From an uncultured Solibacteraceae bacterium (GTDB lineage Bacteria > Acidobacteriota > Terriglobia > Bryobacterales > Bryobacteraceae): 64,000 nucleotides of DNA. Each line of letters opens with the position of its first letter. Position 1 is the stretch's first letter. The notes beneath the pieces were generated by a model. That model searched no databases, was not told where the DNA came from, and saw only the letters and a program-made list of their open reading frames with translations. A program made the translations under genes and the position numbers. The stretch is taken from contig CAYGVJ010000007.1 in the NCBI GenBank assembly GCA_964353255.1, positions 317-64,316 of the forward strand. Direction: 5' to 3'. Positions 6,062 through 25,028 of this stretch are shown piece after piece.

Positions 6062-7873
6062 ATGGATCTCCGCGAGAAGGCCGCTCAGTTGCCCGCCCAG
6101 CCCGGCGTCTACCTCTACAAGGACGCCGGCGGAGCGGTCCTCTACGTCGGCAAGGCCAAGGACCTGCGCAGCCGCGTGCGGAGCTACTTCTCCGAAGGAG
6201 GCCGGGCCGACGCGAAGACCGGCACGCTGATCGCCGAAGCCCGCGACGTGGAGTACATCCTGGTGGACAACGAGCGGGAGGCGCTGGCTCTGGAGAACAA
6301 CCTGATCAAGCACTGGCAGCCGCGCTTCAACGTTTTGCTGCGGGATGACAAGACCTACCCTTACATCAAGCTGACCAACGAGCGCTACCCGCGCGTCTAT
6401 GTGACGCGGCGGCTCATCAAGGATGGCTCGACTTACTACGGCCCGTATTTCCCCGGGAACCTGGCGCACCGGCTGGTGCACTTGATTCACCGGTATTTCG
6501 GGTTGCCCTCCTGCAAGGTGGATCTGACGCGGCGCCACGCGCAGCCCTGCCTCCAGCACCACATTCACCGCTGCCACGGCCCCTGCGTGGAGGGGCTGAC
6601 CACGGAGGAAGCCTACGCCCGGGCGGCCCGCCTAGTCCGGCTGTTTCTGGAGGGACGCCACGGGGACCTGCTCGCGGAGCTGCGCGCGGAGATGCAACGC
6701 GCCTCCGACGAGACGCGCTTCGAGCAGGCGGCAGTGCTGCGGGACGTGATCTCGACCATCGAGGAGACCGAGGATAAGCAGAGGATGGCCGCGGCCGCCG
6801 GCGAGGACATAGACATCTTCGGCTGCTACGCCGAACCGCCGCTGGTAGCGGCCAACGTCTTTCACCTGCGCAACGGGCGCATTGTGGACCGCCGCGAGTT
6901 CTTCTGGGAGGACCGGACGGAGTTCGAATCGGCGGAGTTTGTCTCGGGTTTTTTGAAGCAGTTCTATCTCGACCAGCAGTACGTCCCGGCGCGGATTCAC
7001 GTACCGGTGGAGTTCGAGGACCGGGAGGCTTTGGAGGAGGCGCTGTCGGAGCGGCGCGGGCGCAAGGTCGAGATCCACACGCCGCAGCGGGGACCGAAGA
7101 AGGCGCTGCTCGATCTGGCTGAGACCAACGCCCGGCACAGCTTCGAGCAGCGTTTCCGGGTGCTGAAACCCTCGGCGAAGGCGATTCAAGAGGCGCTTCA
7201 GGACATGCTGGGCTTGGCAGAGCCGCCCCGGCGCATCGAGTGCTTCGACATTTCCCATATTCACGGGACGGACACCGTAGCCAGCCTGGTGGTTTGGGAA
7301 AACGGGCGGATGAAGAAGTCGGATTACCGCAAGTTTGTCATCCGCACCGTGGAAGGCAGCGACGACTTCGCGGCCATGCGGGAGGTGATCACGCGGCGGT
7401 ATCGGCGGCTGCAAGAAGAGAAGCGGCCCCTGCCGTCGCTGGTGCTGGTGGACGGCGGCGTGGGTCAACTGCACGCGGCCGCCGAAGCGCTGGAGGGGCT
7501 GGGAATCACGGATCAGGCGCTAGCCGCCATCGCCAAGCGCGAGGAGTGGATTTACGTCTACGGGCAGGAAGACGAGCCGGTGGTGCTGGACCGCTTCTCG
7601 CCGGTGCTCCATCTGGTCCAGAGCGTGCGCGATGAGGCGCACCGGTTCGCCGTGACCTTCCACCGCACGCGGCGCGCGGCGGCGCGGCTGCGCTCGGAGC
7701 TGGAGCAAATCCCTGGGGTGGGAGAGAAGACCGTGCAGAAGCTGCTCAAGCACTTCGGCAGCCTCGAGGGCGTGCGCCAGGCCGCGGAGGAAGAGCTGGC
7801 GGCGGTGGTGGGGAAGGCAGCGGCAAGGCGGGTGCGGGGGTGGCGCGCCGCTCCCGAGGGCGACGTACAATAA
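6062..7873 (+). CDS. uvrC: Excinuclease ABC subunit C
   Basis: GIY-YIG N-terminus (PGVYLYKDAGGAVLYVGKAKDLRSRVRSYF), UVR domain, RNase H-like endonuclease region and C-terminal (HhH)2 (IPGVGEKTVQKLLKHFGSLEGV). The last 10 codons are unrelated to the displaced tail copies. Confidence 0.95.
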   Translation: MDLREKAAQLPAQPGVYLYKDAGGAVLYVGKAKDLRSRVRSYFSEGGRADAKTGTLIAEARDVEYILVDNEREALALENNLIKHWQPRFNVLLRDDKTYPYIKLTNERYPRVYVTRRLIKDGSTYYGPYFPGNLAHRLVHLIHRYFGLPSCKVDLTRRHAQPCLQHHIHRCHGPCVEGLTTEEAYARAARLVRLFLEGRHGDLLAELRAEMQRASDETRFEQAAVLRDVISTIEETEDKQRMAAAAGEDIDIFGCYAEPPLVAANVFHLRNGRIVDRREFFWEDRTEFESAEFVSGFLKQFYLDQQYVPARIHVPVEFEDREALEEALSERRGRKVEIHTPQRGPKKALLDLAETNARHSFEQRFRVLKPSAKAIQEALQDMLGLAEPPRRIECFDISHIHGTDTVASLVVWENGRMKKSDYRKFVIRTVEGSDDFAAMREVITRRYRRLQEEKRPLPSLVLVDGGVGQLHAAAEALEGLGITDQALAAIAKREEWIYVYGQEDEPVVLDRFSPVLHLVQSVRDEAHRFAVTFHRTRRAAARLRSELEQIPGVGEKTVQKLLKHFGSLEGVRQAAEEELAAVVGKAAARRVRGWRAAPEGDVQ

Positions 7874-7877
7874 GGCC

Positions 7878-8117
7878 ATGGGGTTGCCACCGCCGTTCGA
7901 CCGCATCACCATCGACCCGGAGCTCATGAACGGGCAGCCGTGCATCCGCGGCATGCGGCTCACGGTGCGACGCGTGCTTCAGGCGATGGCGCTCTATCCT
8001 GACCGTGCCGAGCTTTTCCGGGAATATCCGGAACTGGAAGAAGAGGACCTGCGGCAGGCCCTGGAGTTTTCGGCCGCCAATCTGGATGACCGCATCGACC
8101 TGCTGAACGTGGCGTGA
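7878..8117 (+). CDS. DUF433-family antitoxin-like protein
   Basis: ITIDPELMNGQPCIRGMRLTVRRVLQ...YPELEEEDLRQALEF matches the DUF433 pattern. Starts 4 nt after the uvrC stop. Confidence 0.8.
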   Translation: MGLPPPFDRITIDPELMNGQPCIRGMRLTVRRVLQAMALYPDRAELFREYPELEEEDLRQALEFSAANLDDRIDLLNVA

Positions 8118-8120
8118 GCC

Positions 8121-8501
8121 GTGATGCACAGGCTCCTACTGGATCAGGGACTGGCGCGCGCGACGGCAGCGATTCTCAGGGAGCGCGGGTGGGATGCCGT
8201 TCATGTCGGTGAGCTCGGCTTGGCCCACGCCTCAGACCGCTCCATCCTGGAGCTGGCGCGGCGTGACGGCCGCATGCTCTGCACGCTGGACGCTGACTTC
8301 CACCAACTGCTGGCTCTGAGTGGGGCAACGTCTCCCTCCGTCATTCGCATCCGGATCGAGGGCTTGCGTGGTCCGGCGCTGGCGCGGCTGCTGGAGCGAG
8401 TCTTGGAAGAGGTGGGGCCTTCGCTGATGGCCGGAATGGCGGTGACGATAACCACCCGTTCGGTCCGGGTGAGGCGGCTTCCGTTGACCAGCGCGAGATA
8501 G
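8121..8501 (+). CDS. DUF5615-family (PIN-like/Mut7-C-like) toxin-like protein
   Basis: LLLDQGL...HVGELGL..ASDRSILELARRDGRMLCTLDADFHQLL pattern. Sits 3 nt after the DUF433 gene, a typical pairing. Confidence 0.8.
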   Translation: MMHRLLLDQGLARATAAILRERGWDAVHVGELGLAHASDRSILELARRDGRMLCTLDADFHQLLALSGATSPSVIRIRIEGLRGPALARLLERVLEEVGPSLMAGMAVTITTRSVRVRRLPLTSAR

Positions 8502-8502
8502 C

Positions 8503-8661
8503 GTGACTGATTCCCCTGGGGTGGGAGAGAAGACCGTGCAGAAACTGCTCAAGCACTTCGGCAGCCTCGAGGGCGTGCGCCAGGCTTCGGAGGAAGATCT
8601 GGCGGCGGTGGTGGGGAAGGCAGCGGCAAGGCGGGTGCGGGGGTTCCACGCGGCGGGATAG
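8503..8661 (+). pseudogene. uvrC: Displaced uvrC 3' tail, copy B (HhH segment plus its own stop, ...RVRGFHAAG*)
   Basis: 8514-8644 aligns to uvrC 7711-7841 with 4 mismatches in 131 nt (hand alignment). The frame is preserved to TAG 8659-8661. Confidence 0.8.
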
Positions 8662-17979: not shown

Positions 17980-19986
17980 ATGAGCGAAACCAAGTTCCGT
18001 CCCTACGTTCCCGAGAAAACCGACCTCGCCGAATTCACCGTCCGGGCGGTAGTGCTGGGCCTGGTGATGACGGTGGTGTTGGGGGCCGCTAACGCCTACC
18101 TGGGTCTGCGAGCCGGGATGACCATTGCCGCCACATATCCGGCGGCGGTCATCAGCATGGCGGTGCTGCGGCTGTGGCGCGGCTCGATCCTGGAGGAGAA
18201 CATCGCCCGCACCGTCGGCTCGATCGGCGAGTCGGTGGCCGCCGGCGCCATTTTCACCATCCCGGCGTTCGTCATCTCCGGGGCCTGGAAGACGTTCGAC
18301 CCCGGAGTGGCGTACTGGAAATCCACCGTGCTGATGCTGGTGGGCGGCATTCTGGGCATCCTGTTCGTGACCCTGCTGCGGCGGGTAATGGTGGAAGATC
18401 CCGACCTGGGCTTCCCGGAATCGGTGGCGGCGGGCGAGATCCACAAAGCCGGGCAGCGCGGCAGCGGGGCGGCCAAGATCCTCTTCAGCAACATGGCATT
18501 TGGGTCGGTGATCTATGCCCTGGGCGTCGTCAAGCTGTACGCCGCCGGCAAGACTTTTTTGTTGGCGGTCGGCGAGACGGGCAAGAGCCTGGTGCGGCTG
18601 GTGAGCAAGGGCTACCGGCAGGAGGTGGGGGTCGGCGGCGTCACGGCGGCAGCGATGCCGGCGATCAGCCCAGCGTATCTGGGCGTGGGTTACATCATCG
18701 GGCCGCGGCTGGCGGCGCTGAACTTCTCCGGCGGCGTGCTGGCGTGGGGACTGTTGATTCCGCTGCTGGCCTACTTCCTGGGGCCGCAACTGGCGCCCTC
18801 GAACCCCAACTGGGAGACGGTCAGTGACGCGGTCTGGAAGTCCATCGTGCGCCCCATCGCGGTAGGGGGCATGCTGGTGGGCGCCGGCTTCACGCTGTTC
18901 CGGATGCGCAAGAACCTGGCCCGCGGCCTGGCGCGGGCCGTGTCGGACGTTAGGAAAGCCGGGGCCAAGGCGCAGGTCACTTCCCGGCTGGACCGCGACC
19001 TGAGCGCCAAGACGGTCTTCGCCGGGCTGGGCGTCACTTTCGTCTGCATGGCGCTGCTGTACGCCTACTTCGCCAACATGCTCTCCGGGGGCGTGGTGGC
19101 GGCGCTGGTGATGATCGTGCTGGGCTTTTTCTTTGCCGCGGTCTCGGGCAACTTGGTGGGCCTGATCGGTTCCTCGAACAACCCGATTTCGGGCCTGACG
19201 CTATCGACGCTGATCGTGGCGGCGCTGTTGATGGTCTCGATCGGCGTTTCAGGTGTGGGCGGCGTGGCGGCGGTCCTGGGCGTGGCCGCGGTGGTATGCG
19301 TGTCCTCGGCGGTGGCGGGCGAGATGCTCCAGGACCTGAAGGTGGGACATATTCTGGGCGGGACCCCGCGGAGCATGCAGATCGGCGACGTGCTGGGAGT
19401 GGTGTTTGCCAGTCTGCTGATGTATTTCCCCCTGCTGGTGTTGCACCAGGGGAACATCAACGCCGGAGGCATCGGCTTCGGCGACAAGGAATTATCGGCG
19501 CCGCAGGCCGGCCTGATGGCCTCCCTCGCCCAGGGTATCGTGGGGGGCGGCATGCCCTGGCCGCTCATCGCGGTGGGCGTGCTGATGGGCTTCACGCTCA
19601 TCATGGTGCAGGTGCGCAGCCCCATGCTGTTCGCCGTGGGCATGTACCTGCCGCTGGAGACCACGTCGGCGATCTTCGTCGGCGGCGTGTTCCGCTGGAT
19701 CACCGACAGCCTGAGCAAGCGGCGGGGTTTCAACGAGGCCCAGAAGACGCGGGTGGAGAACGCCGGCATTCTCACCGCTTCGGGCCTGATCGCCGGCGAG
19801 GCCCTGACCGGGCTGGTAGTGGCGACCTTCAAGTTCTTCGAGTGGCCGCTGCCGGTAATCTTCAAGGAGCCGTCCATCCTGGCGGGGCTGGTGGTGCTGG
19901 CGCTGATCGCCGGGATCATGATCCGGGTGCCGCTAGGCAGCGCCGGACGGCCGGAGGAGGCCGCGCCGCCGGCGGCGATGATGTAA
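17980..19986 (+). CDS. OPT-family oligopeptide transporter
   Basis: 668 aa, about 16 hydrophobic segments. N-terminal pattern EFT.RA...G......GAANAYLGL..GMT..A..PAAV.S is typical of bacterial OPT proteins. Confidence 0.85.
   Translation: MSETKFRPYVPEKTDLAEFTVRAVVLGLVMTVVLGAANAYLGLRAGMTIAATYPAAVISMAVLRLWRGSILEENIARTVGSIGESVAAGAIFTIPAFVISGAWKTFDPGVAYWKSTVLMLVGGILGILFVTLLRRVMVEDPDLGFPESVAAGEIHKAGQRGSGAAKILFSNMAFGSVIYALGVVKLYAAGKTFLLAVGETGKSLVRLVSKGYRQEVGVGGVTAAAMPAISPAYLGVGYIIGPRLAALNFSGGVLAWGLLIPLLAYFLGPQLAPSNPNWETVSDAVWKSIVRPIAVGGMLVGAGFTLFRMRKNLARGLARAVSDVRKAGAKAQVTSRLDRDLSAKTVFAGLGVTFVCMALLYAYFANMLSGGVVAALVMIVLGFFFAAVSGNLVGLIGSSNNPISGLTLSTLIVAALLMVSIGVSGVGGVAAVLGVAAVVCVSSAVAGEMLQDLKVGHILGGTPRSMQIGDVLGVVFASLLMYFPLLVLHQGNINAGGIGFGDKELSAPQAGLMASLAQGIVGGGMPWPLIAVGVLMGFTLIMVQVRSPMLFAVGMYLPLETTSAIFVGGVFRWITDSLSKRRGFNEAQKTRVENAGILTASGLIAGEALTGLVVATFKFFEWPLPVIFKEPSILAGLVVLALIAGIMIRVPLGSAGRPEEAAPPAAMM
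19960..19984 (+). repeat. 25-nt direct repeat, copy 1 (last codons of the OPT gene)
   Basis: GCCGCGCCGCCGGCGGCGATGATGT is identical to 20613-20637. Here it is followed by AA, giving TAA. Confidence 0.9.
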
Positions 19987-20067
19987 ACGTCCGTTGTGGT
20001 CCGCAGAATCATCTGTGGGATCCTAAGCAAGTTCGTTCGGGCGGTCAGGTTGTGGTGAGGGCTTCTG

Positions 20068-20349
20068 GTGGGGTATACATTTGAGTGGGACCCGAAGAAG
20101 GCGGAGTCCAACGCCCGAAAGCACGGCGTGACCTTCGACGAGGCATCAACGGTCTTCGGCGATCCACTGGCGCTCCTCATGCCCGACCCGGATCACTCTC
20201 TGGACGAGGAGCGGTATCTATTGCTCGGAACATCGAGTCAGCATAGGCTCCTCGTGGTGGCTTTTGCGGAGCGAGCGCCGCGCACCCGCCTGATCTCGGC
20301 GAGAGGAGCCACTCAGCGCGAGCGGAGGCGCTATGAAGAAGAAGGCTAG
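20068..20349 (+). CDS. brnT: BrnT (DUF497) ribonuclease toxin
   Basis: FEWDPKKAESNARKHGVTFDEASTVFGDP....D.DHS..EERY...G......LLVV.......RLISAR.AT..ERR.Y is the canonical BrnT pattern. Confidence 0.85.
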   Translation: MGYTFEWDPKKAESNARKHGVTFDEASTVFGDPLALLMPDPDHSLDEERYLLLGTSSQHRLLVVAFAERAPRTRLISARGATQRERRRYEEEG

Positions 20350-20581
20350 TGGTCGCCATCGGAATAGCGACCGCGACACGATGCGACCAGAGTACGACTT
20401 CTCTGCGGCGGTTCGAGGCGCGACTGCGGCGAGATACGCTCAGGGCGCCAACGTCGCTGTGATCGATCCGGAGGTGCTGGACGTGTTTCCCGACGGCGCC
20501 GCCGTGAACCAAGCGCTCCGCGCTCTCGCGCCCGTCCTGCGCCAACAACGTCAGGTCCCGACGAAGCAGGGAAGCGCCTAA
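20333..20581 (+). CDS. Cognate antitoxin of BrnT (BrnA position)
   Basis: Overlaps brnT by 17 nt. The EYDFS...NVAVIDPEVLDVFPD..AVNQALRAL pattern is common in BrnT partners. Confidence 0.6.
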   Translation: MKKKASGRHRNSDRDTMRPEYDFSAAVRGATAARYAQGANVAVIDPEVLDVFPDGAAVNQALRALAPVLRQQRQVPTKQGSA

Positions 20582-20612
20582 CAGACAAAAGATCCCTGAA
20601 CACACGGCTGAA

Positions 20613-20637
20613 GCCGCGCCGCCGGCGGCGATGATGT
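20613..20637 (+). repeat. 25-nt direct repeat, copy 2 (displaced OPT gene terminus)
   Basis: Identical to 19960-19984. Followed by GA, giving TGA. Confidence 0.9.
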
Positions 20638-20648
20638 GAGCGGGGGCC

Positions 20649-22526
20649 TTACAGCACCACGCGCTGGTCGCCTTCGCGGCGGGTGAGGCGCTCGCGGTCC
20701 AGGTATTCGAGCAGCGGAATGGCGTACTTGCGCGAGACGCCGGCCAGCTCCTTGAACTCCGCCACGGTCAGCCGGCGGCCTTTGTAGCCGCTCATTTTCC
20801 GGCGCAGCTCCTGGAGGGCGGCGGAGTGGAAGACCAGCTCGTCGCCCACGCGGACGAGTCGGCCTTGGCGGAGCAGCAGTTGGAGCAGCGAGCGGGCGCG
20901 CGCCGGCTCGAGGCCGGATTTCGCCAGCACCTCGGCCACCGCGGGCACGCCCAGGCCGGCCTCGAGGAAGGCCTTCTCGATGGCCGCCAAGGCCTGCTCC
21001 TCGTCGTGCTTCAGCGCCGGCTTGTGCGTCACCAGGCGAACCGCTTCGCCCTCCGCGACGATTCCGGTAGAGCCCTCGAGCAAGGCGTCCAGCAGGAAGG
21101 CGGGCGCCTCCGGCAGCTCGCGGCTGCGGAGTTCCTGCTTGGGCATCCCGGGCAGCAAGGGGTTCTGCGCGTGGAAGGCTTCCAGTACCTGAGTGAGGCG
21201 TTGCAACGTAGCGCCCGCCCACTGCCGGTCTGCCACCCAGAGCTGCGGCTGGCGGAACAGCAGCAGGCGCTCGGATTGAGCGGCGCGTTCCAGCTCGTGC
21301 TCAGAAGAGCCGGTGCGGGCCACCAGCTCCGCCAGGCTCAGGCCGTAGCGCGACTCGCGCACCAGCAGCTCGACGCGCTCCTCCAACGTTCCCTCCGCCA
21401 GAATCTTCAGGCGAGTGGCCGCGCGCTCGCCACGTCGATACCTGTGACCGCTGATGTCCAGCACCGTGCCGCCGCCGATGGTCACTACGGGCGAGAACAT
21501 GCGGATGATGAAGCGGTCGCCGGGCAGCACCAGCAGCGGTTGCTCGAAGCGCAGCCGGGCATAGGTGCGGGCGCCGGGCTGCAACGTCTCGGTGCCGTCC
21601 AGCAGCCGCACCTGGGCCTCTACTTCCGCGGTTCCGGCGTGGAAATGCACCGGCGCCCGCTGCTTCAAAGGCTTCGCCGAGGGCAGCAGCTCCAGCAGGC
21701 AGTCCAGTTCGGCGGTGGCGCGAAGGCGCCCCGGTTCGGAGAGCACCATGCCGCGTGCCAGCTCGGACGCCTCGGCGCCCACCAGGTTCAGGGCGGTGCG
21801 CTGCCCGGCCAGGGCCCGCTCGACGGCGGCGCCGTGCACCTGGATCCCGCGGACCCGCAAGCGCCGCCCACCGGGATGAACTTCCACTTCCTGCTCGTGC
21901 GCCACCGAGCCTGAGATGAGCGTTCCGGTGACCACCGTTCCGAAGCCGCGCATCGAGAAAGCGCGGTCGATGGGCAGGCGCAGGCAGCGCGAGGCGTCCT
22001 TGAGGGGGACCGTCGAGGCCGCTTCCCGCAGACGCGCCACCAGCTCTTCGAGTCCCTGGCCGGTCACCGAGCTGACTGCGAGGATGGGCGCGCCCTCCAG
22101 GAACGAGCCGGCAACGAAGTCCTCCACTTCCAACCGGACCAAGTCCAGGATGTCGCGCTCGACCAAGTCGGCTTTGGTCAGAACCACGATGCCTTGCGGG
22201 ATGCCGAGCAGCCGGCAGATGTCGAAGTGCTCGCGCGTCTGGGGCTTGACGGACTCATCGGCAGCGATCACCAGCAACAGCAGATCGATGCCGCCCACCC
22301 CGGCCAGCATGTTCTTGACGAACCGCTCGTGACCGGGCACGTCCACAAAACCCAGGCGTATGTCGGGGGGCAGGTCCAGGTGGGCGAAACCCAGGTCGAT
22401 GGAGATGCCGCGGCGCTTCTCTTCTTCCAGCCGGTCAGTGTCGATGCCGGTGAGCGCCCGGACCAAGGCGGTCTTGCCGTGGTCGATGTGGCCGGCGGTT
22501 CCGACGATGACGTGACGCATACCCAC
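20649..22526 (-). CDS. selB: Selenocysteine-specific translation elongation factor
   Basis: GTPase motifs [16 protein letters not shown] and TKADL, then EF-Tu-like domains II/III and a long winged-helix C-terminal SECIS-binding extension. 625 aa. Confidence 0.9.
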
Positions 22527-24119: not shown

Positions 24120-25028
24120 TTGCGCCGTCATCCTCTCTTCAAAGCGTATGTCGCGCTGGTGGCGATCTGCTTCTTCTGGGGCACGACCTACCTGGGAATC
24201 CGGATGGCCCTGGAGTCCTTCCCTCCGCTGCTGCTGGTGAGCCTGCGTTTCCTGGTTTCCGGAGGTGTGCTGCTGGTGGCCGCCCGGCTGGTGGGAGCGC
24301 ACTTGCCTGGAGGCCGGGACCTGCTGATCTCGGCGTTCACCGGGTTTCTGAATCTCGGGATAGGGAACGCCTGCCTGACCTTCTCGGAATTGTGGATTCC
24401 GAGCGGCTGGGCGGCGTTGATTATCAGCATGTCGCCGCTCTGGATGGTGACCATCGAATCCTTGATGCCGGGGGGAGAACGGATGCACCGCCCGGGGCTC
24501 CTGGGGCTGCTGGTGGGCCTGGCCGGGGTCGGGCTGCTGCTATCCTCCGACATCACTGGCGCCCGATTCGGCGGCGCCCTGGTCAAAGGGTTCCTGGTTC
24601 TGCAACTAGGCACCGCGGCATGGTCGTTCGGGTCAATCTACCAGAGACGGCAAGCGACGCCCGTTCATCCGGTGGTCACCGGCGCCGTCCAGCAGCTTGC
24701 CGCGGGTCTGGCGTTCCTGCTACCTGCCTTACTGGTGCCGGAGCAGCCGGTGCGCTGGAGCTTTCGCGGGGCGGCGGCGCTGGTGTACCTGATGGTGTTC
24801 GGCTCGATCATCGGCTACAGCGCGTACGTCTATGCGCTGAGTCACCTGCGGGTGGCGGTGGTTTCGATCTACCCTTACGTCAATCCCGTGGTGGCCGTGG
24901 CGCTGGGCTGGCTGTTCTACCGTGAGCCGTTCGGGATGCGGGAGGGCGCGGCTATGGCGGTCATTTTCGCAGGTGTGCTGCTGGTGAAGCGGTCCACGCC
25001 TGGGGCGCGTCCGGCGCCCTCAGACTAG
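24120..25028 (+). CDS. EamA/DMT-family transporter
   Basis: About 10 hydrophobic helices in two EamA-like halves. TTG start. Confidence 0.75.
   Translation: MRRHPLFKAYVALVAICFFWGTTYLGIRMALESFPPLLLVSLRFLVSGGVLLVAARLVGAHLPGGRDLLISAFTGFLNLGIGNACLTFSELWIPSGWAALIISMSPLWMVTIESLMPGGERMHRPGLLGLLVGLAGVGLLLSSDITGARFGGALVKGFLVLQLGTAAWSFGSIYQRRQATPVHPVVTGAVQQLAAGLAFLLPALLVPEQPVRWSFRGAAALVYLMVFGSIIGYSAYVYALSHLRVAVVSIYPYVNPVVAVALGWLFYREPFGMREGAAMAVIFAGVLLVKRSTPGARPAPSD

What the first reader, a model, noticed from the sequence alone, without database searches (positions are those of the whole stretch)
19960..20637. BrnTA cassette flanked by an exact 25-nt duplication of the OPT transporter gene's last codons
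GCCGCGCCGCCGGCGGCGATGATGT (encoding ...AAPPAAMM) ends the OPT gene at 19960-19984, followed by AA (TAA stop). It recurs exactly at 20613-20637, followed by GA (TGA stop), only 10 nt from the convergent selB stop. The 628 nt between the copies hold only brnT and its antitoxin. The ancestral state was evidently OPT and selB converging tightly, with the cassette dropped precisely at the stop codon and the gene end regenerated. This is the same signature as at uvrC, which suggests one shared insertion mechanism for small TA cassettes in this genome. A weak inverted 6-mer (GGGATC at 20017 / GATCCC at 20591) lies near both cassette ends, but it is too short to count as evidence.
Basis: partly seen in the sequence, partly recalled or inferred. 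Interest (0 to 1): 0.6.

Follow-up and report, generated by a model that had tools for sequence, protein, structure and literature searches.

The report
Toxin-antitoxin insert with duplicated gene end
A two-gene toxin-antitoxin cassette was inserted between two converging housekeeping genes, copying the last 25 bases of one of them; at least 50 other such cassettes in this soil bacterium carry the same scar, which gives a concrete clue to how these modules enter genomes without any enzyme of their own.

Summary
The exact 25-mer lies at 19960-19984 and 20613-20637 and nowhere else in the 5.4 Mb genome. Four independent assemblies show the same structure. The 628 nt between the copies hold only brnT and a conserved 82-aa partner. 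A same-genus genome has OPT and selB converging directly, with one copy of the OPT end followed by TGA, as after the downstream copy here. That is an empty site.

This locus is not alone. About 104 unique short-range repeat pairs (18-555 nt) bracket whole genes, and at least 52 enclose TA parts. Repeats bracket 24% of PIN genes and 70% of HicA genes, against 3% of large genes. They usually cover a host gene's last codons up to its stop. Cassettes share no end motif. A close BrnTA relative elsewhere is bracketed by about 280 nt of duplicated mutY end.

[quoted passage not shown] The mechanism is not shown. I favour joining by host replication or repair, with the addictive cargo blocking loss through the repeats. 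One other locus shows a homology-guided joint.

Verdict: real, first reading supported, new member of a known kind.

The parts
17980..19986 (+). OPT-family oligopeptide transporter gene (668 aa). This is the target gene, and its last 25 nt form repeat copy 1.
   Evidence: PF03169, E=6.5e-89. Orthologues are 87% identical in same-genus genomes.
19960..19984 (+). Direct repeat copy 1. It encodes the functional OPT codons AAPPAAMM plus the T of the stop codon.
   Evidence: Exact match. Unique in the genome.
19964..19977 (.). Perfect 14-nt palindrome CGCCGCCGGCGGCG inside the repeat. It recurs at 20617-20630 in copy 2.
19985..20612 (+). Inserted segment of 628 nt. Its first two bases, AA, complete the new OPT stop codon TAA.
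   Evidence: Absent from the G001 empty site. GC is 0.61-0.64 against 0.67-0.71 in the flanks. GC3 is 0.71-0.72 against 0.88-0.90 in the neighbouring genes.
19985..20037 (+). Left filler of 53 nt, not shared with the closest related cassettes.
   Evidence: Nucleotide similarity to cassettes 84-88% identical begins at 20038-20056.
20038..20582 (+). Conserved cassette core: about 30 nt of leader, brnT and its partner gene.
   Evidence: blastn against L076 (88%), L072/L075 (84%) and L069/L070 (85%) all ends at 20582. G195 matches at 78% over cassette positions 64-598.
20068..20349 (+). brnT, a 93-aa BrnT-family ribonuclease toxin with a GTG start.
   Evidence: PF04365, E=1.8e-26. PDB 7vd7 'toxin', E=1.8e-12.
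20333..20581 (+). 82-aa partner gene, the putative antitoxin. It overlaps brnT by 17 nt and belongs to no Pfam or NCBIfam family.
   Evidence: It follows a BrnT homologue in 17 of 19 loci from other genomes. About 2,000 unnamed relatives exist. No family hit even at E<=10.
20583..20612 (+). Right filler of 30 nt between the partner gene's stop and repeat copy 2. It is not shared with related cassettes and is too short to hold an attC-type site.
20613..20639 (+). Direct repeat copy 2 plus GA. This is the displaced relic of the original OPT end with its original TGA stop.
   Evidence: Exact match. It resembles the G001 OPT end ATGATGTGAGCC.
20640..20648 (.). Original 9-nt OPT-selB spacer.
20649..22526 (-). 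selB (selenocysteine-specific elongation factor), convergent with OPT.
   Evidence: GTP_EFTU plus SelB winged-helix and beta-barrel domains.
7711..8654 (+). Sister case in the same window. The uvrC 3' end (141 nt, 94% identical; 7711-7851 and 8514-8654) brackets DUF433 (7878-8117) and DUF5615 (8121-8501).
   Evidence: A Logan contig confirms the junction.

Best explanation
The 25-nt repeat is the scar of a real insertion. A foreign DNA piece of about 630 nt, carrying only a brnT-partner operon, was joined into the 9-nt gap between the convergent OPT and selB genes. The two joints were offset: one fell at the OPT stop codon and the other 25 nt upstream. The last 25 nt of OPT therefore now stand on both sides of the insert. 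The upstream copy serves the gene, with a new TAA stop completed by the insert. The downstream copy, with the old TGA, is a relic. This is an 'insertion with long, variable target duplication', and it happened at least dozens of times in this genome. Inferred, not shown: the cassette has no ends of its own and encodes no recombinase, so the host's replication or repair machinery made the joints. The likeliest routes are a template switch onto the foreign DNA and back a short distance behind the point of departure, or one homology-guided joint plus one illegitimate joint. A repeat-flanked insert is easily lost by recombination between the repeats. A toxin-antitoxin cargo kills or arrests cells that lose it, and I propose this is why TA modules (like restriction-modification modules) are what remains between such repeats.
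For: Shown directly:
- The repeat is exact and unique and is confirmed in four independent assemblies.
- G001 has an empty site with a single copy of the OPT end and a TGA stop.
- The insert holds only two ORFs, has no Rfam hit and has no meaningful terminal inverted repeats. Its GC and GC3 are lower than the flanks.

Shown genome-wide:
- Short-range exact repeats of 18-29 nt number about 260, against about 15 in distance-shifted controls.
- 153 isolated unique pairs exist, 104 of which enclose whole genes. At least 52 hold Pfam-labelled TA parts from more than 15 families.
- 24% of 83 PIN genes and 70% of 20 HicA genes are bracketed, against 3% of genes longer than 250 aa.
- The repeat overlaps a host 3' end in about 60 cases and a 5' end only in about 8. 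The relic usually keeps an in-frame stop at the same position.
- A second clean empty site (C189) is present in both same-genus genomes.

Against a dedicated recombinase:
- Repeat length varies from 18 to 555 nt, there is no shared end motif, and cassettes lie in both orientations.
- Related BrnTA cassettes share only the operon core (20038-20582). One sits at mutY with about 280 nt of duplicated mutY end.

For host recombination: at C189 the cassette carries a 57-nt, 74%-identical foreign copy of the target gene's own tail, joined in frame right after a 102-nt exact repeat (z=16).

Literature: the same signature is described for restriction-modification systems with no mobility gene (PMC2853133). 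The way TA systems integrate is called unelucidated (PMC7167474).
Against: - No step of the mechanism is observed.
- The homology-guided joint is shown at only one locus. In 14 other testable cases the new gene tail is unrelated to the relic tail.
- Mismatches inside the repeats are spread evenly, so they carry no crossover signal.
- At 25 nt this repeat is at the short end of the published range (24-423 bp).
- The clustering of repeat edges at stop codons may partly reflect short intergenic spacers and selection, not mechanism. My null model there was crude.
- The addiction-retention idea is untested, and the BrnT pair here has not been shown to be toxic or addictive.
- Finished genomes of the same family show far fewer bracketed HicA loci (2 of 17), and I cannot explain the high frequency in this genome.
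Confidence: 0.55

Rival explanations
1. Campbell-type spread. A circular DNA holding the cassette plus a stretch of the OPT end (for example a circle excised from another strain by recombination between its own repeats) integrated by a single RecA-type crossover within the shared 25 nt or more. That would duplicate the shared stretch. On this reading the repeat is the homology segment, not a target duplication made at a break.
For:
- The shortest repeats (18-25 nt) are near the minimal length for RecA-dependent exchange (established knowledge).
- The C189 cassette carries a foreign copy of the target gene's tail.
Against: - It needs a donor that already had BrnTA behind an OPT gene. None of 19 BrnT loci in 18 related genomes, nor any of 8 metagenomic relatives, lies next to OPT or selB.
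- It cannot explain first arrival at a new target; the same cassette family is found at OPT here and at mutY elsewhere.
- At C189 a simple crossover between diverged partners would leave the two repeat copies different, yet they are 102/102 identical next to a 74%-identical tail.
Confidence: 0.25
2. Site-specific integration by a tyrosine or serine recombinase acting in trans, with the 25-mer as the attachment-site core. The cassette would be a miniature, non-autonomous integrative element.
For: Direct repeats that regenerate a gene's 3' end are the classic mark of integrase-mediated insertion. One cassette in this genome is bracketed by a 48-nt tRNA 3' end (C13:10909/11535).
Against: - Every cassette has a different repeat, from 18 to 555 nt.
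- There is no shared core or end motif, and no integrase in or beside the insert.
- Related cassettes share only coding sequence.
- One recombinase could not recognise dozens of unrelated sites.
Confidence: 0.06
3. Classical transposition of a non-autonomous element, with the 25 nt as a target-site duplication from staggered cuts by a transposase encoded elsewhere.
For: A flanking direct duplication of target sequence is what transposition leaves. A few transposons make unusually long duplications (IS1630, 19-26 bp, cited in PMC2853133).
Against: - There are no terminal inverted repeats beyond chance.
- Duplication length varies 30-fold among cassettes.
- Cassette ends are not conserved.
Confidence: 0.03
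4. Chance repeat or assembly artefact of a metagenome-assembled genome.
For: The assembly does contain artefact-like exact 55-nt repeats at 155-nt spacing and at contig ends.
Against: - No match appeared in 100 shuffles, and composition predicts about 6e-5 such repeats per genome.
- 25 nt does not coincide with the 55-nt length of those artefact-like repeats.
- Four independent Logan assemblies from other runs reproduce the structure.
- G001 provides a biologically sensible empty site.
Confidence: 0.01

Closest known systems
Insertion with long target duplication of restriction-modification systems (Nobusato et al. 2000, Gene 259:99; Furuta, Abe & Kobayashi 2010, NAR 38:2428, PMC2853133)
   Same: A small addictive gene module with no mobility gene is flanked by direct repeats that are single-copy at the empty site. 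Repeat length is long and variable (24-423 bp in their Table 3). Repeats often span a start or stop codon of the target gene, and they are unique in the genome.
   Different: The cargo is a type II toxin-antitoxin pair, not an RM system. The authors' suggested link to DNA breakage by the restriction enzyme cannot apply to an RNase toxin. The frequency is far higher here: dozens per genome, against 23 listed genome comparisons across all the genomes they screened. Their reviews ascribe this mode to RM systems, not to TA systems (PMC3874152).
Integrase-mediated integration of genomic islands and non-autonomous integrative elements at gene or tRNA 3' ends
   Same: Direct repeats carry the 3' end of the target gene, so the gene stays intact and a displaced copy is left on the far side.
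   Different: There is no integrase, no common core, highly variable repeat length and no conserved element ends.
Integron gene cassettes carrying TA pairs (chromosomal superintegrons)
   Same: Very compact cassettes of one or two genes, often TA, with little non-coding DNA, sometimes stacked in series at one site.
   Different: There is no attC-like site (only 30 nt lie after the last gene), no IntI or attI, and the repeats between cassettes are pieces of the host target gene.
Homology-facilitated illegitimate recombination and microhomology-mediated template switching (known from natural transformation and from replication-restart studies; recalled from my own knowledge)
   Same: They are recombinase-free, need no element ends, can capture arbitrary foreign DNA, and use one homologous anchor plus one illegitimate joint (as at C189). 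Template switching can leave a duplication flanking the templated insert.
   Different: These are laboratory-defined processes that have not been tied to TA cassettes. Duplication rather than deletion at the illegitimate joint is not the usual reported outcome. Nothing here shows which enzymes acted.
BrnT/BrnA type II toxin-antitoxin system (Brucella abortus; Pfam PF04365)
   Same: The toxin gene matches the BrnT family strongly, comes first in the operon and overlaps a small downstream partner gene.
   Different: The partner matches no described BrnA or CopG antitoxin model. It belongs to a large unannotated family.

Membership tests
Insertion with long target duplication (LTD) | The insert is flanked by direct repeats that correspond to one copy in a genome with an empty site. 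| tested here: met
   G001 has OPT, a single copy of the end, TGA, a spacer and then selB. The reconstructed joint aligns contiguously apart from G001's longer spacer (68 nt against the 12-nt gap in the query).
Insertion with long target duplication (LTD) | The repeat is longer than usual transposon duplications and variable between events. Furuta et al. used >30 bp in one screen and >20 bp in the other. | tested here: met
   25 nt here passes their >20 bp screen (their shortest listed cases are 24-29 bp) but fails the >30 bp screen. Across this genome the range is 18-555 nt with a median of 59.
Insertion with long target duplication (LTD) | No transposase, integrase or other mobility gene lies in or next to the insert. 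| tested here: met
   Only brnT and its partner lie in the 628 nt. The neighbours are OPT and selB.
Insertion with long target duplication (LTD) | The repeat sequence is not a multi-copy element. | tested here: met
   There are two copies in the whole genome and none in the public contig collections.
Insertion with long target duplication (LTD) | The cargo is a restriction-modification system, as in every described case I could read. | tested here: not met
   The cargo is BrnT plus a partner. I therefore file this as a new cargo class of the same kind of event.
BrnTA type II TA system | The toxin belongs to the BrnT family. | tested here: met
   PF04365, 92.7 bits against a 34.5-bit cut-off. 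PDB 7vd7 toxin, E=1.8e-12.
BrnTA type II TA system | The antitoxin is a BrnA/CopG-type ribbon-helix-helix protein. | tested here: not met
   The 82-aa partner has no Pfam or NCBIfam hit even at E<=10. It is nonetheless a conserved partner, present in 17 of 19 loci.
BrnTA type II TA system | The toxin is growth-inhibitory and is neutralised by the partner. | not testable with these tools
   Needs expression in a laboratory strain.
Integrase-dependent integrative element | A cognate recombinase and a conserved attachment core. | tested here: not met
   There is no recombinase gene, and no common core among 61 cassette junctions.
Transposon or MITE | Terminal inverted repeats and a target duplication of fixed length. 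| tested here: not met
   Only chance-level inverted 6-mers are present. Duplication length varies from 18 to 555 nt.
Integron cassette | An attC recombination site downstream of the cargo gene. | tested here: not met
   Only 30 nt lie between the partner's stop and repeat copy 2, and no imperfect palindrome of attC size is found.

The most novel reading that the evidence does not exclude
In this acidobacterial lineage, type II toxin-antitoxin operons enter chromosomes by a general, recombinase-free duplicative capture at the 3' ends of housekeeping genes. Host replication or repair joins end-less foreign DNA with offset joints, sometimes guided by a hitch-hiking piece of the donor's copy of the same gene. 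The resulting repeat-flanked insert survives only because its cargo is addictive. Repeated rounds stack cassettes on one gene tail, giving integron-like arrays without an integrase. The same logic would explain why this scar was first seen around restriction-modification systems.
Probability: 0.35. Interest if true: 0.75.

Novelty: new member of a known kind. Interest (0 to 1): 0.58.

Why it matters
[quoted passage not shown] This genome holds dozens of TA cassettes that still carry their insertion scar, some with 100% identical repeats and with empty sites in sister genomes. That makes the question concrete:
- The scars give target sites, joint positions and cassette limits.
- They show that no element-encoded enzyme or end sequence is involved.
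- They link TA mobility to a mode so far documented only for restriction-modification systems.

The shared property of the two cargo types is post-segregational killing. This suggests a simple, testable rule: repeat-flanked inserts persist only if losing them is lethal. If the rule holds, it explains both the placement of TA modules at gene 3' ends and their accumulation in slow-growing soil bacteria. For genome annotation, the displaced gene-end relics (for example 20613-20639 here) should not be called as genes, and the C-terminal residues of target genes may be foreign.

Tried and rejected
1. Shared motif or inverted repeats at cassette ends.
2. Strict co-orientation of cassette and target gene, which would point to retro-insertion or read-through. 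The count is about 29 co-directional to 18 opposite, so there is no rule.
3. My idea that cassettes generally carry a diverged donor copy of the target gene's tail. An apparent rise of differences toward the stop codon was an artefact of adding unaligned tails. Within symmetrically defined repeats the mismatches are uniform. Only 1 of 15 testable tails (C189) is homologous. I kept this as a single-locus result.
4. A donor context for BrnTA behind an OPT gene. It was not found in 19 loci from 18 related genomes or in 8 metagenomic contigs.
5. A second copy of the OPT end in G002. There is none; G002 has a PIN/Phd pair and other genes after OPT, with no repeat.
6. An empty allele or circle junction in public contigs. 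The 25-mer is absent from metagenome contigs and genome contigs. Exact look-ups of OPT and SelB found nothing.
8. Naming the 82-aa partner. Pfam and NCBIfam gave nothing even at E<=10.
9. Promoter, terminator and Rfam scans of the insert found nothing.
10. DNA structure at the joints. Folds at repeat edges are only slightly more stable than at control stop codons (-9.7 against -8.5 kcal/mol, p=0.01). This is too weak to build on.
11. The stop-codon clustering statistic. 22 of 54 repeat edges lie within 5 nt of the stop against about 4 under a uniform null. The null ignores short intergenic spacers and selection, so I do not treat this as evidence about mechanism.
Full report
**1. The observation**

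The 25-mer GCCGCGCCGCCGGCGGCGATGATGT stands at 19960-19984 and 20613-20637. With up to three mismatches allowed, nothing else matches in the window, and no match appeared in 100 dinucleotide-preserving shuffles. In the whole assembly (5.4 Mb, 261 contigs, 65.7% G+C) the two copies are the only ones; the next best match has four mismatches.

Copy 1 forms the last eight codons of a 668-aa OPT transporter gene (PF03169) plus the T of its stop codon, and the next two bases, AA, complete TAA. Copy 2 is followed by GA, giving TGA. Nine nt further on is the stop of a convergent selB gene.

The 628 nt in between hold a BrnT-family toxin gene (PF04365, E=1.8e-26; PDB 7vd7, E=1.8e-12) and an overlapping 82-aa ORF. 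Nothing else is there: no Rfam family, no consensus promoter or terminator, and no inverted repeats beyond chance.

Contigs assembled independently from four other public runs carry the same arrangement at 98-100% identity, and three of them span both 25-mers. The structure is therefore real and not a product of this assembly.

**2. It is an insertion**

Of the two other genomes of the genus, G001 has OPT ending ...ATGATGTGA, then a 66-nt hairpin spacer, then the selB stop, with no cassette. A query made by joining the window's flanks with one repeat copy aligns across that site.

The downstream copy in the window (ATGATGTGAGCG) resembles this ancestral end (ATGATGTGAGCC). It is therefore the displaced original, and the upstream copy serves the gene with a stop codon completed by the insert.

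The insert has lower G+C (0.61-0.64 against 0.67-0.71) and lower GC3 (0.71-0.72 against 0.88-0.90) than its neighbours.

The OPT 3' flank varies in this group. G002 has a PIN/Phd pair and other genes there, without a repeat. G018 has a 418-aa hydrolase-like gene between OPT and selB.

**3. The cargo**

The 82-aa ORF matches no Pfam or NCBIfam model even at E<=10. It nonetheless follows a BrnT homologue in 17 of 19 loci from 18 other genomes of the family, and it has about 2,000 unnamed metagenomic relatives. It is a conserved BrnT partner and most likely the antitoxin, but this is inferred.

**4. The same scar is everywhere in this genome**

- Exact direct repeats of 18-29 nt lying 300-1500 nt apart number about 260, against about 15 at control distances.
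- After mismatch-tolerant extension, and after removing CRISPR arrays, paralogues and multi-copy elements, 153 isolated unique pairs remain. Of these, 104 enclose whole genes and 28 lie inside one gene.
- Pfam labels the enclosed ORFs as HicA/HicB, MNT/HEPN, PIN, DUF433/DUF5615, BrnT, MazF, Gp49/HigB-like, MqsA-like, AF2212-like, CopG, RHH, ParD and UPF0175. At least 52 intervals hold such a part, which is a lower bound.
- Starting instead from Pfam models: 24% of the 83 PIN genes and 70% of the 20 HicA genes are bracketed by repeats of 20 or more matches. The figure is 12% for other small genes, many of which are themselves TA parts, and 3% for genes over 250 aa.
A 141-nt stretch at 94% identity brackets DUF433 and DUF5615, and the downstream copy keeps the old uvrC tail and stop.

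**5. Anatomy of the scars**

- Repeat length runs from 18 to 555 nt, with a median of 59.
- The repeat overlaps the 3' end of a host gene in about 60 cases and only a 5' end in about 8.
- In most cases the relic copy keeps an in-frame stop at the same place as the functional gene.
- The repeat edge next to the cassette lies within 5 nt of the stop codon in 22 of 54 cases and within 15 nt in 35. I do not lean on this, because short intergenic spacers and selection could produce much of it.
- Cassettes lie in both orientations, and I saw no shared end motif.

**6. The cassette has no ends of its own**

The nearest relatives of this cassette come from other metagenomes, at 84-91% nucleotide identity. 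They match the window only from 20038-20056 (about 30 nt before brnT) to 20582 (the partner's stop). The 53 nt and 30 nt next to the repeats are private to this locus.

One such relative (L069/L070) sits at the 3' end of a mutY gene. There it is bracketed by about 280 nt of duplicated mutY end, in two blocks of 93 nt and 187 nt at about 94% identity. The same cassette family thus shows the same scar at another target with another repeat length.

Four or five of 19 BrnT loci in other genera are also bracketed by local repeats of 42-156 nt. In finished genomes of the family, 2 of 17 HicA loci are bracketed. The phenomenon is therefore not a metagenome artefact, but it is much more frequent in this genome, and I cannot explain why.

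**7. What the data say about mechanism**

A dedicated recombinase or transposase is very unlikely. Targets, repeat lengths and cassette ends all differ, and no mobility gene is present.

One locus gives positive evidence for host recombination. At C189 an MNT/HEPN cassette has empty sites in both same-genus genomes. Its 102-nt exact repeat is followed, in the functional gene, by a 57-nt tail that is 74% identical to the relic tail and in frame with it. The relic tail is closer to the G002 orthologue (86% against 77% for the functional tail).

Such uneven divergence cannot come from decay in place. The cassette arrived with a foreign copy of the same gene's end, and one joint was made at the homologous position. 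A Logan contig confirms that junction.

I tested whether this is general, and it is not. Mismatches inside the repeats are uniform, and 14 other tails are unrelated to their relics.

For the OPT locus the evidence therefore supports only this much: two offset joints, made without element-specific sequences. I favour a template switch or a homologous-plus-illegitimate joint by host enzymes. Integration of a circle carrying the OPT end is the main rival. The 25-mer contains a perfect 14-nt palindrome, and repeat edges fold slightly more stably than control sites. Both are weak hints at best.

**8. Comparison with what is known**

I read the accessible papers.

Furuta, Abe and Kobayashi (PMC2853133) describe restriction-modification systems inserted with long, variable duplications of 24-423 bp. 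The repeats often span a start or stop codon, no mobility gene is present, and the mechanism is unknown; they suggested a link to DNA breakage by the restriction enzyme. Their review (PMC3874152) ascribes this mode to RM systems, not to TA systems. Among the 32 papers in the library that use the phrase, none names TA cargo in its title or abstract. A 2020 review states that the way TA systems integrate is unelucidated (PMC7167474).

The locus meets every structural criterion of that class except the nature of the cargo. An RNase toxin cannot supply the DNA break that was proposed for RM systems. What RM and TA modules share is post-segregational killing. I therefore propose, as inference, that repeat-flanked inserts are common but short-lived, and that addictive cargo is what survives between the repeats.

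**9. Verdict**

The event belongs to a known kind (long target duplication) with a cargo class I found no report of, at a frequency that makes the mechanism testable. The mechanism itself remains inferred.

My confidence by claim:
- Real insertion with a target-derived duplication: about 0.9.
- Same class as the RM cases: about 0.8.
- Joining by host replication or repair with addiction-based retention: about 0.4.

Noticed in passing
G000 contig C189:6514-7682 (outside the window): An MNT/HEPN cassette has a 102-nt exact repeat of a dapA-like gene end. The functional gene's last 19 codons are a foreign, 74%-identical version of the relic tail. Both same-genus genomes have empty sites.
   Followed up: yes
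G000 contig C13:10909-11582 (outside the window): A 48-nt exact repeat that looks like a tRNA 3' end (...GGTTCGAATCC...CCA) brackets a 626-nt interval holding a single nucleotidyltransferase-type gene, with no integrase.
   Followed up: no
G000 contigs C6:34399/34554, C22:33975/34130, C31:40631/40786, C79:13515/13670, C11:43455/43770/43925 (outside the window): Exact 55-nt repeats lie at 155-nt spacing, and 55-59-nt repeats involve contig ends. These are probably assembler artefacts, and some may insert spurious sequence into genes.
   Followed up: no
window 20333-20581: The 82-aa BrnT partner belongs to a family of about 2,000 metagenomic proteins with no Pfam or NCBIfam model. The N-terminal motif RPEYDFS recurs in other small partner proteins of this genome.
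   Followed up: partly
L069:2533-3250 and L070:599-1134: In the mutY-linked relative of this cassette, brnT is broken into short ORFs while the partner gene is intact. The antitoxin has outlived its toxin.
   Followed up: no
L031:3183-3883 (G002, downstream of its OPT gene): G002 carries a PIN/Phd-type pair where this genome has BrnTA, without a flanking repeat. G018 (L032:2192-3448) has a 418-aa hydrolase-like gene between OPT and selB. The OPT 3' flank is a variable spot.
   Followed up: partly
G000 contig C170:6191-6320 and many contigs of G001 and G002: A multi-copy element of about 110 nt (containing ...TTGTCAAGG...GGGACAGGACACT...) recurs in dozens of places in all three genomes of the genus. 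A copy also lies just downstream of OPT in G002. It looks like a REP/MITE-like repeat.
   Followed up: no
whole genome G000: TA load is very high: 83 PIN-domain and 20 HicA loci in 5.4 Mb.
   Followed up: partly
window 24256-24278 and 24964-24986: A 23-nt repeat at 91% identity lies inside a single 302-aa ORF (24120-25028). It is an intragenic repeat, not an insertion scar.
   Followed up: no
G000 contig C125:13700-15350 (outside the window): An array of repeats of about 40 nt (...TTTCCGCGATCGAGCGATCGCGGCCCCATTGAAGC). It is probably the CRISPR array that accounts for the hundreds of 30-39-nt repeat pairs in the first scan.
   Followed up: no
L033:4961-5032 (G001 OPT-selB spacer): The empty site in G001 holds a near-perfect hairpin with a stem of about 20 bp between the two stop codons. 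This genome has only 9 nt at that position.
   Followed up: no
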